Shown here: positions 18,001 to 21,000 of the stretch, piece after piece | Layout of the letters: each line of letters begins with the position of its first letter | Numbering within the stretch: position 1 is the stretch's first letter | NCBI RefSeq assembly: GCF_057098645.1 | Contig: NZ_CM169472.1 | Direction: 5' to 3' (one strand) | DNA length: 64,000 bases | Program-made: the position numbers

Positions 18001-21000
18001 AAATGGTACTCATCACCAGCGACAGCGCTGATATCAATCTGCGCTGGGAGATTGGTTTGCGTATTGACTTCGGTATACATATCCAGCGGCGCATTTTGTG
18101 AAAAGCGCAGATTATTTTCCTGGAAAGTACTGTAAATGCCTTTGCTTAAGGCTTCAGCGTCGTTACCTCCCGTCCATATCTGTTGCCCTTTACTGGCAAC
18201 AATAGTTGCGGTGCCGGTATCCTGACAGTTGGGTAATACCCCTTTTGCTGAGACTTCAGCATTACGTAATAACTGCAACGCAACGTATTTATCATTACTA
18301 CTGGCCTGCGGATCGTTAAGAATGCTGGCGACCTGTTGCAAATGAGCGGAACGTAAGAAAAAAGAGGCTTCATAAAATGCCTGCCGGGCAAGCAGCGTTA
18401 ATGCTTCAGGAGCGATTTTTATCACTTCTTCGCCGTCTAATTCCGTTACTGTAATATGTTGATCGCTAATTAATGTATATTCCGTACCGTCTTTATTTTG
18501 TAGAAACGGTTCTTGCCAGATAAATGGTTTGGACATATTTCACTTTTCACCTTAAACGTTAGTGTTACTTAATTGCCGTCTAACTTCATGATCCGGCTTA
18601 TAAAAATGCGTAGTCATTGGCTTCTGATTGCTTAAGATCCCCCTCAGGGCAGAGCAACGTTCGATTCATTGGGTTTTAATGCTTTACCCCGACAGCCCTC
18701 GCCGAAATGTTCGCCTTCCCACCGACTCACCATCGCAGCGCCCATTGCGTTGCTCATGACGTTTGTCGCGGAACGCCCCATATCAAGGAACGGATCAACG
18801 CCCATCAGCAAGATCAGCCCCGCTTCCGGAATATTGAACTGGTTGAGCGTGGCGGCGATAACCACCATTGAGGCGCGTGGTACGCCAGCCATTCCTTTCG
18901 AGGTCAACATCAGGATCAACAGCATGGTGATTTGCTCACCGATGGATAAATGGATATTGCAGGCCTGGGCGATGAAAACTGTGGCGAAGGAGCAGTAGGC
19001 CATTGATCCAACGAGATTAAATGAATAGCCAATGGGTAAGACAAAGCTGGCAATTTTGGGGGAAACGCCAAATTGCTCCAGTTTTTCAAGCGTTCCCGGA
19101 AAAGCCGCTTCAGAACTGGATGTGGTAAATGCCAGCAGGGCGGGTTCCGAAAGGGCGCGGGTCAGGCGTCTGATGCAGGGGCCGACATAAACGATGGCCA
19201 GCCCGATAAGCAGCACCCAAAGTAACAACATGGTGAAATAAAATTCACCCATAAAGATCCCGGCGCTCACCATAACTGCCAGTCCTCGTTCAGCAATCAA
19301 TGCTGAAATAGCGGCGAATACGGTCAGGGGAGCGAAGAGCATGACGTAGCCAGTGAGCTTTAACATGGCATGTGCCAGCGAATCTAAGGCGTGAACGATG
19401 GCGCTGCCTTTCTCGCCAATCGCCGTCAGGCTACAGCCGAGGAAAATTGAGAACACCACGATTTGCAAAATTTCATTGTGCGCCATGGCATCGACAATGC
19501 TGGTGGGGAAAGCATGCGAAATAAATACTTTTAGCGTAAAGGGTTCTGACGCGACCACTCCTGTGGTTTCGGCACCGTGTGCAACAAAATTAATTCCTGT
19601 GCCTGGTATGAAGAAATTTACCGTTATCAAGCCTAAGGCAATTGACAGCAATGAGGCGCAAATAAATAAAAAGAGTGTTTTAGAAAAAATACGACCAAGG
19701 GCTTTGGCATCGCCCATTTTAGCAATACCTACCACCAGGGTAGAGACCACTAACGGAGCGATAATCATTTTTATCAGTCGTAAGAAAATCGTCGTGAATA
19801 TCGATATTTCTTGCGCATAGAGTTTTGCTGTTTCCGGTGAAGCAGTGTTATTGAGCACTACGCCGATAATCATTCCAAGTACCAGCGCCAAAAGAATCAT
19901 CGTGGTTAAACTTATTTTCTTCATTTTTTCCTCCATCAGGTGCACGGCGATAAATCAGAATCAGGAGAAGTAGATGCCTGAATAGAGATTCAGGCATCTA
20001 CCTGCTATTACAACCTTACAAATAGCTGAAGTGTTGAACTGCAATAAGTGACGGGATGTCAGTTGGCTAAAATTATTCGGATTTTTACAAATCGAAACTC
20101 ATATTTAATAAAGGTGCATGTTGCTGTGCACCATAGACATCATTGTCACCTACATTCCCGGAGATAATATCTCGTGGCATGACGATTTTTACTGCGTTAG
20201 AAGGATCAAACCAGACAATACGATGAATAAAGTCAGGTTCAACATGATATAAGCGCGCAATCAGTTCTGGGGTTAATTGCCCTGATGATTTAACTCGCTC
20301 ATAGTTTTCTTTCGTTTTAAATAAAATATCTAAAACCAGTTCGTAAGGTCCGGCATTTTTCGAACGAATGACTTGCGCCAGTGAGACAATTGACTGTTTC
20401 ATGCCTGAACTCCTTCTGGCGTCACCTGTTCAATATGGAAATCAAAACGCAGAGCGTCGTTGGCTTCAATCAGGTGATATATGGAAAATTCGTATACCGG
20501 CCCGCCCTGGATATCAGAAGGGGAGAACGGGAACGCCAGGTTGCCTGCGGTAGCGATGCGGTTTTCATAGCCGTAGTGCAGCATGGTAGAGCGCACCAGC
20601 GAGCAAACGCTATTGGCAATTTCCTGGGTCGGTGCAACTACATCAAGGACAATCCCCAGCTCATGCCCGGCAGTTTGCATCGGTTCATGGTCGCCCATCA
20701 CCCCGTTTTTGCCGTACAGGTGGAAATTGATGCGAATGCTGTCATCGTCGAGCGACAGGTTACGCGAAACGCTGGTTTTGACTTCATCGATGATTTTATC
20801 GATCCCAGCGATCATGATCGGGTCGCGCGTTCCGGCGATGGTCAGACAGCGGAAGCCCACCCGTCGCGCACCTTCCAGTTTCAGGGCATACGGCGTTTCT
20901 TCATGCTTAGAACCGCTGACGTACACTTCGCCGTCATTGACCGCTTTAAATGTGCAGCCTTTCAGGTTCAACACGCCGCCAGGTCCTGGCAGAAAGTAGG

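What the first reader, a model, noticed from the sequence alone, without database searches (positions are those of the whole stretch)
19946..20084. Perfect 14-bp inverted repeat inside the operon between the 105-aa unknown gene and the transporter gene
gtagatgcctgaat/attcaggcatctac (19970-20001) forms a strong hairpin in the only sizeable intergenic gap (about 160 bp) within the operon. It could be a partial terminator or attenuator separating the mutase/lyase module from the transporter/mesaconase/adenosyltransferase module, an RNase processing site, or a protein-binding palindrome.
Basis: seen in the sequence. Interest (0 to 1): 0.3.

Follow-up and report, generated by a model that had tools for sequence, protein, structure and literature searches.

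The report
Conserved mRNA hairpin inside glutamate-fermentation operon
The palindrome is real and is an evolutionarily conserved RNA stem-loop in the untranslated spacer between two halves of the E. coli methylaspartate (glutamate-fermentation) operon, most likely an ordinary nuclease-blocking hairpin that sets different mRNA levels for the two halves rather than a classical terminator or a protein-binding site.

Summary
A perfect 14-bp inverted repeat with a 4-nt loop lies at 19970-20001. It sits in the 160-nt untranslated spacer between the DUF4387 gene and a dicarboxylate/amino-acid symporter gene. Both belong to the minus-strand methylaspartate operon of an O157/O145-like E. coli.

The repeat is more than chance. 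The fold is -23.9 kcal/mol and no shuffle of 200 matches it. Only two such repeats occur in the 64 kb.

The same hairpin position is kept in Citrobacter, Enterobacter, Klebsiella, Salmonella arizonae, Buttiauxella and others, with different stem sequences. Thirteen of 15 pairs show changes on both sides, and 93.6% of cells stay paired. A covariance model built without any Escherichia sequence finds this site as its only hit in the window. Wobble pairs favour the operon strand.

It is single-copy, unlike REP elements, matches no Rfam family, lacks a U-tract and lies near no sigma-70-like promoter. Almost every enterobacterial version of the spacer keeps a strong hairpin after DUF4387.

My inferred function is a protective or processing stem-loop that uncouples mRNA levels of the mutase/lyase and transporter/mesaconase modules. 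This may act after Rho-dependent termination, but that part is weakly supported in E. coli itself.

It is a new member of a known kind, of modest interest.

The parts
19970..20001 (-). Core stem-loop: 14-bp perfect stem with a 4-nt loop (GUAGAUGCCUGAAU CUCU AUUCAGGCAUCUAC in the mRNA sense).
   Evidence: Searches give the sequence and the repeat. One search gives -23.9 kcal/mol with 0 of 200 shuffles as stable.
19966..20006 (-). Extended helix in the minimum-energy fold. G20002.U19969 and A20003-U19968 extend the stem, followed by two more pairs across a 1-nt bulge.
19960..20025 (-). Stretch matched end to end by the covariance model of the orthologous element (degenerate linker AUUUGUAAGGUUGUAAUAGCAGG, hairpin, 3' flank). 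The conserved GGUUG lies at 20011-20015.
   Evidence: 26.2 bits, E about 1e-3, the only hit in the window, and all 15 model pairs are standard pairs. The model was built from 30 non-Escherichia sequences.
19925..20084 (-). The 160-nt untranslated spacer between the DUF4387 stop codon (20085-20087) and the symporter ATG (19922-19924).
   Evidence: No conserved small ORF. No sigma-70-like site on the minus strand. No Rfam match.
19937..19969 (-). Pyrimidine-rich tract just 3' of the hairpin (UUCUCCUGAUUCUGAUUUAUCGCC...). It corresponds to the C-rich, G-poor tract of the orthologues.
   Evidence: orthologues average 39% C and 9% G here; E. coli has 31% and 19%; not distinctive over 40 nt in E. 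coli, but at the 97th percentile in C. braakii.
19930..19934 (-). Shine-Dalgarno GGAGG of the symporter gene, 35 nt downstream of the hairpin.
   Evidence: Read directly. AUGGAG is invariant in alignment A3.
20085..20402 (-). DUF4387 gene (105 aa), the last gene of the mutase / lyase / AtuA-like / DUF4387 module.
   Evidence: Homologues carry PF14330.
18644..19924 (-). Dicarboxylate/amino-acid:cation symporter gene (426 aa; 'GltP' in Kronen & Berg 2015), the first gene of the symporter / FumD / CobO module.
   Evidence: PF00375. PMC4682846.

Best explanation
The repeat encodes a stem-loop in the polycistronic mRNA of the methylaspartate operon (minus strand). It lies in the untranslated spacer after the DUF4387 gene.

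Shown: natural selection keeps the pairing rather than the sequence, across at least nine genera. The hairpin has no U-tract and no nearby promoter consensus. Almost every enterobacterial version of the spacer tested holds an unusually strong hairpin after DUF4387.

Inferred: it acts as a nuclease-resistant 'protective' structure. Transcripts that end or are cut in the spacer or beyond would be trimmed back by 3'-5' exonucleases (PNPase, RNase II) to the foot of the stem. Such ends could arise by Rho-dependent termination on the pyrimidine/C-rich tract just downstream, or by RNase E cleavage. The result would be a stable glmS-glmL-glmE-mal-atuA-DUF4387 message whose level is uncoupled from that of the symporter-fumD-cobO part. 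The net effect is partial attenuation or discoordinate expression at the module boundary, without a classical intrinsic terminator.
For: The structure is real and strong.

The orthologous position in 35 aligned spacers keeps 93.6% of cells paired. Thirteen of 15 pairs changed on both sides, 0 of 500 shuffles reach the observed score, and slid controls give only 21-47% pairing.

E. albertii shows a clean A-U to G-C swap relative to E. coli. Both E. coli stem polymorphisms are A-to-G changes that leave G.U pairs in the sense RNA.

G.U outnumbers A.C by 56 to 12 cells, or 14 to 7 distinct states.

A model built without Escherichia finds this site alone in the 64 kb.

There is no U-tract, no sense-strand sigma-70-like site in the spacer of E. 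coli, C. braakii, Y. alsatica or E. marmotae, and no coding potential.

A strong local hairpin follows DUF4387 in 30 of 33 representative spacers, beating all 25 shuffles each. This holds even in lineages where the next gene is fumD because the symporter gene is missing. E. coli has lost the stop-proximal hairpin P1 of its relatives, so this is its only strong one.

The tract 3' of the hairpin averages 39% C and 9% G in orthologues.

Precedent: in E. coli, Rho-dependent transcripts end at stable U-less stem-loops followed by C>G sequence, and these loops protect against PNPase and RNase II (PMC6061677). Conserved protective structures reshape operon stoichiometry, as in malEFG and papBA (PMC5927463).
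Against: No transcript data were available, so co-transcription across the gap, 3' ends and processing are all inferred.

In E. coli itself the C-over-G tract is weak: 10 C against 10 G over 40 nt, the 47th percentile for the operon.

The hairpin lies 83 nt after the stop codon and only 35 nt before the symporter's Shine-Dalgarno sequence. In relatives it is flanked by strongly conserved single-stranded motifs. That layout would also fit a 5'-leader element of the symporter gene.

The sense-strand bias in distinct states (14 against 7) is only suggestive.

The upstream module carries frameshifts in mal and glmL in this strain, so the present function here is uncertain.
Confidence: 0.5

Rival explanations
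1. The hairpin is one module of a larger cis-regulatory 5' leader of the symporter gene. That leader would comprise hairpin P1, an invariant linker, hairpin P2 (this finding), ACCCUAC and the Shine-Dalgarno region. It would respond to a trans-acting factor (sRNA, protein or metabolite) to control translation or read-through into symporter-fumD-cobO.
For: Among non-Escherichia orthologues the linker UUCAUGCGGUUGGUCACAACAGG (majority fraction 0.94, 56% invariant columns), ACCCUAC (0.95) and the Shine-Dalgarno region (0.93) are far more conserved than neutral fourfold sites of DUF4387 (0.65, none invariant).

A second hairpin, P1, covaries: 5 of 8 pairs changed on both sides.

A possible outer helix GGUUG/CCARC is 96.5% paired.

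CCCUAC also recurs about 20 nt upstream of the symporter AUG in Yersinia and Hafnia.

No Rfam family covers the region.

ACCCUAC and AUCCGAU are complementary to Spot 42 nt 1-7 and 52-58.
Against: E. coli, the genome in question, lacks P1, and its linker is largely diverged; ACCCUAC is reduced to CUAC and absorbed into the stem.

The outer helix shows only one-sided changes.

The Spot 42 complementarity is not significant: at least two such 7-mers appear in 8% of shuffles.

The hairpin loop carries no conserved sequence (majority fraction 0.70).
Confidence: 0.2
2. It is a weak or partial intrinsic (Rho-independent) terminator in E. coli, releasing a fraction of polymerases at UUCUCCUG.
For: The stem is long and stable with a 4-nt loop. 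Two U directly follow it, and the next 20 nt are U-rich (11 of 20). In Yersinia the post-DUF4387 hairpin is followed by UUUUUUCU and is listed as terminator-like.
Against: Only 4 U occur in the first 8 nt, and the scan does not list the full hairpin as terminator-like. The stem is 43% GC with an A/U-containing foot. Orthologues of this hairpin have one U in the 8-nt tail, so the conserved function cannot be intrinsic termination. The Yersinia hairpin is not detected as homologous.
Confidence: 0.12
3. It is an RNase III cleavage site. The 16-bp helix would be cut to separate the two modules into independent mRNAs.
For: The stem is an uninterrupted 14-17 bp helix in E. coli and most orthologues. 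This is longer than typical terminator stems. The intercistronic location resembles T7 early-region and rpsO-pnp sites (from my own knowledge).
Against: The helix is shorter than the roughly two helical turns preferred by RNase III (own knowledge). Several orthologues tolerate internal mismatches or a 7-bp stem, as in Escherichia sp. MOD1. Nothing specific to RNase III could be tested.
Confidence: 0.08
4. It is a palindrome with no function of its own: a relic of an inserted palindromic element, kept paired by quasi-palindrome template-switch mutation rather than by selection.
For: The hairpin is absent from the Pseudescherichia-type spacer, which otherwise shares the linker and Shine-Dalgarno flanks, as if it had been inserted or deleted as a unit. 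The spacer accepts ERIC-like insertions in other species. In C. amalonaticus S646 the hairpin has decayed. Template switching can produce apparent double changes (own knowledge).
Against: It has persisted at one position across at least nine genera, with four Watson-Crick pair types at a single position. G.U exceeds A.C on the sense strand. It is single-copy and unrelated to REP.
Confidence: 0.07
5. It is a DNA operator: a palindromic binding site for a dimeric regulator, for example an ArgR-like box (TGAAT-N4-ATTCA) or the neighbouring LysR-type regulator.
For: The dyad symmetry is perfect. The core CCTGAAT-CTCT-ATTCAGG resembles the ARG-box core (direct reading plus my own knowledge of the consensus). 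A LysR-family gene lies at 15333-16238.
Against: Arm sequences differ at 8 of 14 positions between E. coli and Citrobacter while pairing is kept. A sequence-specific protein site would not behave this way. Six of the ten E. coli sequences compared carry ATTCG instead of ATTCA. There is no second box 21 bp away (direct reading), and no promoter nearby to regulate.
Confidence: 0.03

Closest known systems
Protective 3' stem-loops of Rho-dependent or processed transcripts in E. coli (Dar & Sorek 2018, PMC6061677 and PMC5927463)
   Same: It is a stable stem-loop without a U-tract, in or next to an operon segment boundary. The structure is conserved among enterobacteria. In orthologues a C>G tract lies just downstream.
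   Different: No 3'-end, bicyclomycin or exonuclease-mutant data exist for this locus. In E. coli itself the C>G tract is weak. This element is intergenic, whereas many of theirs lie inside coding regions.
REP/BIME elements acting as intercistronic mRNA stabilisers (malE-malF paradigm)
   Same: It is an extragenic palindrome between cistrons of one operon. In E. coli the stem begins with GTAG and ends with CTAC. The presumed role is the same: a barrier to 3'-5' exonucleases.
   Different: It is single-copy per genome. Its similarity to the window's six true REPs is not significant, with 106 of 500 shuffles scoring as high. It is a perfect rather than an imperfect palindrome. In relatives CUAC lies outside the stem and there is no GTAG.
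Intrinsic (Rho-independent) terminators and attenuators
   Same: It is a hairpin with a 4-nt loop on the transcribed strand, at a position where reduced read-through would make regulatory sense.
   Different: It lacks the U-tract (4 of 8 in E. coli, 1 of 8 in most orthologues). The stem is longer and less GC-rich than typical. No alternative antiterminator pairing was found.
papBA-type processing: RNase E cleavage upstream of a 5' hairpin that stabilises the downstream cistron
   Same: A hairpin lies a short distance upstream of the downstream gene's ribosome-binding site in a polycistronic RNA.
   Different: No cleavage site is known here. The universal feature across lineages is a hairpin after DUF4387, whatever gene follows. 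That points to protection of the upstream segment rather than the downstream one.

Membership tests
REP (repetitive extragenic palindromic) elements | Present in many copies per genome | tested here: not met
   A 52-nt query around the hairpin matches only the 1123 genomes that carry the island, at a single locus in each. The second 'place' is most likely the palindrome matching itself on the other strand. The window contains no other copy with up to 2 mismatches apart from one chance-level 14-mer.
REP (repetitive extragenic palindromic) elements | Sequence similarity to the REP consensus | tested here: not met
   The best local alignment to the six true REPs of the window scores 9. Shuffles average 7.7, and 106 of 500 shuffles score at least as high.
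REP (repetitive extragenic palindromic) elements | GTAG/CTAC tetranucleotide flanking an extragenic palindrome | tested here: inconclusive
   E. coli arms start with GTAG and end with CTAC. In E. albertii they are GTGG/CCAC. In Citrobacter-type orthologues CUAC lies outside the stem with no GTAG partner.
Intrinsic terminator | Stable GC-rich stem with a short loop | tested here: inconclusive
   The stem is stable (-23.9 kcal/mol) with a 4-nt loop. However it is 14-16 bp long, only 6 of 14 pairs are G-C, and the foot is GUAG/CUAC.
Intrinsic terminator | U-tract immediately 3' of the stem | tested here: not met
   The tail UUCUCCUG has 4 U in 8. The scan needs 5 of 8 and does not list the hairpin. 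Orthologues have ACCCUACA, with one U.
Protective stem-loop of Rho-dependent or processed transcripts | Energetically stable stem-loop without a U-rich tail | tested here: met
   The class is defined in PMC6061677.
Protective stem-loop of Rho-dependent or processed transcripts | Cytosine-over-guanosine enrichment just downstream (rut-like) | tested here: inconclusive
   Orthologues average 39% C and 9% G over about 32 nt, and C. braakii sits at the 97th percentile. E. coli has 10 C against 6 G over 32 nt, but 10 against 10 over 40 nt, the 47th percentile.
Protective stem-loop of Rho-dependent or processed transcripts | Mapped RNA 3' end at the stem foot; dependence on Rho (bicyclomycin) and on PNPase/RNase II | not testable with these tools
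   No transcriptome data are reachable. Full-text searches for the locus tags found only PMC4682846.
Any curated RNA family (Rfam 15) | Covariance-model match | tested here: not met
   No match at E<=1 in window 14000-32000. None in the spacers of seven orthologous loci.
ArgR operator (ARG box pair) | Two 18-bp ARG boxes about 3 bp apart, with a conserved TGAAT...ATTCA core | tested here: not met
   There is one box-like core only. ATTCA is ATTCG in 6 of the 10 E. coli sequences compared. The core is CTGAGC...GCTCAG in relatives. The consensus is recalled from memory.
Conserved structured RNA element (general) | Covariation that preserves base pairing across species | tested here: met
   Thirteen of 15 pairs have changes on both sides, 93.6% of cells are paired, 0 of 500 shuffles reach the observed score, and slid controls give at most 47.5%. 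The Escherichia-free model recovers the site.

The most novel reading that the evidence does not exclude
The DUF4387-symporter spacer of the enterobacterial methylaspartate cluster could be an undescribed structured regulatory RNA leader. It would consist of two covarying hairpins plus the near-invariant single-stranded motifs UUCAUGCGGUUGGUCAC and ACCCUAC, and it is absent from Rfam. It would sense a signal (an sRNA such as Spot 42, a protein, or a metabolite of glutamate fermentation) and gate expression of the glutamate symporter, mesaconase and adenosyltransferase genes. The E. coli hairpin would then be its degenerate remnant.
Probability: 0.15. Interest if true: 0.55.

Novelty: new member of a known kind. 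Interest (0 to 1): 0.3.

Why it matters
The methylaspartate cluster is an accessory island found in about a fifth of complete E. coli genomes (1123 of 5426). According to the literature it is present in most O157:H7 strains and in many opportunistic enterobacterial pathogens (PMC4682846). Its regulation is unstudied.

A structure-conserved stem-loop at the boundary between the enzyme module and the transporter/mesaconase module gives a concrete, testable handle on how the two halves are expressed at different levels. It also adds a well-supported example, with covariation across at least nine genera, to the class of U-less protective hairpins inside operons.

It does not change any general concept. 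The wider conserved leader in Citrobacter, Klebsiella and Enterobacter is the part that might repay experimental work.

Tried and rejected
REP membership: rejected. The element is single-copy and its similarity to the window's true REPs is not significant.

Rfam families: none match in E. coli or in seven orthologous loci.

Sigma-70 promoter in the spacer: no sense-strand site in E. coli, C. braakii, Y. alsatica or E. marmotae. By eye I also tried sigma-54 spacing on TGGTCAC...GC. The GG-to-GC distance is 9 nt (8 in E. coli) rather than 10, so I rejected it.

Small ORF or leader peptide: the only ORFs touching the hairpin are E. coli-specific. Loop-length differences that are not multiples of three break any frame through the hairpin in relatives.

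ArgR box: rejected, as set out in the rival explanations.

A repeated family shared with Citrobacter: the Citrobacter hairpin has no match in 28 Gb of E. coli genomes.

Spot 42 pairing: I verified the sRNA sequence. Long-range duplex predictions were uninformative because they allow large loops. Seed counting gave P(>=2 sites) = 0.08, so I kept this only as a lead.

Rho rut-like tract: clear in relatives but not distinctive in E. coli, so Rho involvement is stated only as a possibility.

Literature: searches for locus tags ECs0757-0759 and Z0890-0892 gave no transcript-level information.
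Full report
**What is there.** The window is E. coli chromosome, 99.8% identical around the site to O145 strain RM9872 and 99.6% to O157:H7 strains. The finding lies in the accessory island between sucD and cydA that carries the methylaspartate pathway genes on the minus strand. The gene order is glmS, glmL, glmE, mal, an AtuA-family gene, a DUF4387 gene (20085-20402), a dicarboxylate/amino-acid:cation symporter gene (18644-19924), a class I fumarase gene and cobO. A LysR-family gene lies beyond, on the other strand. The fumarase is FumD, a mesaconase (PMC4682846). The island is present in 1123 of 5426 complete E. coli genomes.

**Checking the observation.** The inverted repeat is exactly as described: arms 19970-19983 and 19988-20001, 14 nt each, 100% complementary, with a 4-nt spacer.
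- Read on the operon strand it is GUAGAUGCCUGAAU-CUCU-AUUCAGGCAUCUAC. A G.U and an A-U pair extend it to 16 pairs.
- It folds at -23.9 kcal/mol, z = -6.9, and 0 of 200 shuffles are as stable.
- Only one other perfect 14-bp hairpin repeat exists in the 64 kb, inside an ERIC-like element at 60673-60704.
- With the annotated ATG (19924) the spacer is 160 nt.
- It is the largest gap in the operon but not the only sizeable one. A 107-nt gap precedes fumD.

**Is it a repeated element?** No.
- A 52-nt query matches only genomes that carry the island, at one locus each.
- The six true REP units of the window (8207-8309, 44095-44108, 63129-63171) are no more similar to the hairpin than to shuffled versions of it; 106 of 500 shuffles score as high.
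- Rfam gives no match at E<=1.

**Comparative evidence.** A scan of one genome per species with a DUF4387 alignment returned 80 loci. In 52 Enterobacterales loci the DUF4387 gene is followed by the symporter gene, across a spacer of 61-364 nt.
- I aligned 35 spacers of the E. coli/Citrobacter type: three E. coli, Escherichia sp. MOD1, and members of Citrobacter, Enterobacter, Lelliottia, Klebsiella, Raoultella, Pluralibacter, Buttiauxella and Salmonella enterica subspecies arizonae and diarizonae. The hairpin sits at the same aligned position in all of them, after ...GGUUGGUCACAACAGG, but with different stem sequences.
- On the 15-pair helix, 93.6% of cells are standard pairs and 13 of 15 pairs show changes on both sides. 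One position has four Watson-Crick pair types. No shuffle of 500 reaches the observed covariation score, and sliding the partner by 1-3 columns drops pairing to 21-47%.
- E. coli and Citrobacter arms differ at 8 of 14 positions, each with the matching change on the other arm.
- A covariance model built from 30 non-Escherichia sequences finds 19960-20025 (minus strand) as its only hit in the window. The score is 26.2 bits, E is about 1e-3 over 300 kb, and all 15 pairs are standard. It also finds E. albertii, but not the Yersinia, Morganella, Pseudescherichia, E. marmotae or E. fergusonii spacers.

**Within Escherichia.** Ten E. coli sequences show three stem haplotypes: the perfect one, an A-to-G change in the 5' arm, and an A-to-G change in the 3' arm. 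Both changes leave a G.U pair in the sense RNA and would give A.C in the antisense RNA. The loop varies between CUCU and UUUU. E. albertii carries a full A-U to G-C compensatory swap (GUGG...CCAC).

**Which strand.** Across the 35-sequence alignment, G.U pairs in the sense orientation outnumber A.C by 56 to 12 cells, or 14 to 7 distinct states. This favours an RNA structure on the operon strand. The count of distinct states is only suggestive on its own.

**What it is not.**
- *Not a canonical intrinsic terminator.* The tail UUCUCCUG has 4 U in 8. The scan does not list the hairpin. Orthologues are followed by ACCCUACA.
- *Not a promoter region by consensus.* No sense-strand sigma-70-like site lies in the spacer in E. 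coli, C. braakii, Y. alsatica or E. marmotae.
- *Not coding.* See, together with the frame-breaking loop-length differences.
- *Not a sequence-specific protein site.* The arms change freely. The ARG-box-like TGAAT-N4-ATTCA core is ATTCG in 6 of the 10 E. coli sequences compared and is absent in relatives.

**A wider pattern.** All 59 enterobacterial spacers examined contain a strong local hairpin, from -12.9 to -43.6 kcal/mol. In 30 of 33 representative spacers it beats all 25 dinucleotide shuffles. There are two architectures.
- Yersinia, Hafnia, Morganella, Pseudescherichia, E. fergusonii, E. marmotae and E. whittamii have a hairpin 10-45 nt after the stop codon. In Yersinia it is followed by a U-tract and is listed as terminator-like.
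- The Citrobacter type has such a stop-proximal hairpin (P1) plus the present one (P2). P1 is 93% paired, with 5 of 8 pairs changed on both sides.
- E. coli has lost P1 and keeps only P2.
- E. marmotae, E. whittamii and Escherichia sp. E1V33 lack the symporter gene altogether, yet still have a 13-bp hairpin after DUF4387.

The constant feature is therefore a strong stem-loop after DUF4387, whatever gene follows. That points to a role at the 3' side of the upstream module.

**Mechanism (inferred).** Dar and Sorek showed that E. coli Rho-dependent transcripts end precisely at stable stem-loops that lack a U-tail and are followed by C>G sequence. These loops protect against PNPase and RNase II (PMC6061677). 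They also showed that conserved protective structures reshape operon stoichiometry, with malEFG and papBA as paradigms (PMC5927463).
- The present hairpin fits that class: stable, U-less, intra-operon and structure-conserved.
- In orthologues the 28-36 nt after it average 39% C and 9% G, against 22% and 17% upstream. C. braakii sits at the 97th percentile of its locus.
- In E. coli itself the tract is pyrimidine-rich but not distinctive: 10 C against 10 G over 40 nt.
- I therefore commit only to the protective or processing role, with confidence 0.5. Rho is one possible source of the 3' ends.

**Rival worth keeping.** Among non-Escherichia orthologues the single-stranded flanks are much more conserved than neutral sites.
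- The linker has a majority fraction of 0.94 with 56% invariant columns. ACCCUAC scores 0.95 and the Shine-Dalgarno region 0.93.
- Fourfold-degenerate sites of DUF4387 score 0.65 with none invariant.
- The hairpin arms score 0.83-0.85 with almost no invariant columns (0 and 1 of 15), and the loop is near neutral at 0.70.

This pattern resembles a structured regulatory leader of the symporter gene and is absent from Rfam. ACCCUAC and AUCCGAU are complementary to Spot 42 nt 1-7 and 52-58 (sRNA sequence verified), but such double matches occur in 8% of shuffles. E. coli retains little of these flanks, so for the window this reading is secondary (0.2).

**Verdict.** The element is a conserved mRNA stem-loop of the protective or processing kind. 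It is a new, well-supported member of a known class rather than a new mechanism. Interest is 0.3.

Noticed in passing
window 21773-23013 (mal) and 24477-25866 (glmL), minus strand: Both genes look frameshifted in this strain. mal has a 1-nt deletion about 231 nt into the gene relative to the intact mal of strain 100416. The glmL reading frame is broken near its 5' end. PGAP flags the same two genes as frameshifted in O145 RM9872. The mutase/lyase module may therefore be non-functional here. This is in line with the failure to detect methylaspartate ammonia-lyase activity in an O157:H7 strain (PMC4682846).
   Followed up: partly
window 60627-60760: An ERIC/IRU-like element contains the window's only other perfect 14-bp hairpin repeat (60673-60704, CCCCAGTCACTTAC / GTAAGTGACTGGGG). 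I recognised it from memory of the ERIC consensus and did not test it formally.
   Followed up: no
window 8207-8309, 44095-44108, 63129-63171: These are genuine REP/BIME elements (CTTATCMGGCCTAC matches). I used them as the comparison set for the REP test.
   Followed up: yes
L002 (E. coli strain 100416), match ends at window 19994: An IS1B insertion with deletion of the DUF4387 gene. The left breakpoint lies inside the right arm of the hairpin. It is a single case among 1123 genomes.
   Followed up: partly
L007, L008, L088-L090 (Escherichia sp. E1V33, E. whittamii, E. marmotae): The symporter gene is absent. DUF4387 is followed by a spacer of about 270-290 nt and then fumD. A 13-bp hairpin (AUAAAUGUACCUG...CAGGUGCAUUUAU) remains about 30 nt after the stop codon.
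   Followed up: partly
A3 columns 28-64 and 65-90; e.g. L040 4345-4408: Citrobacter-type spacers carry a second covarying hairpin (P1) with a conserved loop (GCUGUAUCAC), and a near-invariant linker UUCAUGCGGUUGGUCACAACAGG. No Rfam family matches. E. coli lacks P1. P1 may be homologous to the Yersinia terminator-like hairpin, since both loops contain GCUGU(C/A)U; this is my inference.
   Followed up: partly
L040 about 4445-4451 and 4474-4480; window 20074-20081: There is complementarity to Spot 42 sRNA. ACCCUAC matches nt 1-7 and AUCCGAU matches nt 52-58 in most Citrobacter-type leaders. In E. coli, AAAUCCGA (matching nt 53-60) lies right after the DUF4387 stop codon. This is not significant by shuffling (P about 0.08 for two sites).
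   Followed up: partly
L016 4440-4570 and L027 4319-4510: ERIC-like insertions lie inside the same spacer in C. amalonaticus S646 and in K. oxytoca. In the former the insertion is next to a decayed copy of the hairpin; in the latter it lies upstream of P1.
   Followed up: no
window 20073: The window carries a base (A in the sense-strand AAUAAUUUU) that differs from all 1123 island-carrying complete E. coli genomes, which have C or U. The best identity over the 160-nt spacer is 99.4%.
   Followed up: no
L005 (contig labelled 'MAG: Collinsella sp.'): This 7.3-kb contig encodes a DUF4387 protein 100% identical to the window's and a symporter 99.8% identical. It is probably a mis-binned E. coli contig.
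   Followed up: no
window 18537-18643: A second sizeable untranslated gap (107 nt) lies between the symporter gene and fumD. No strong hairpin or terminator-like site was reported there.
   Followed up: partly
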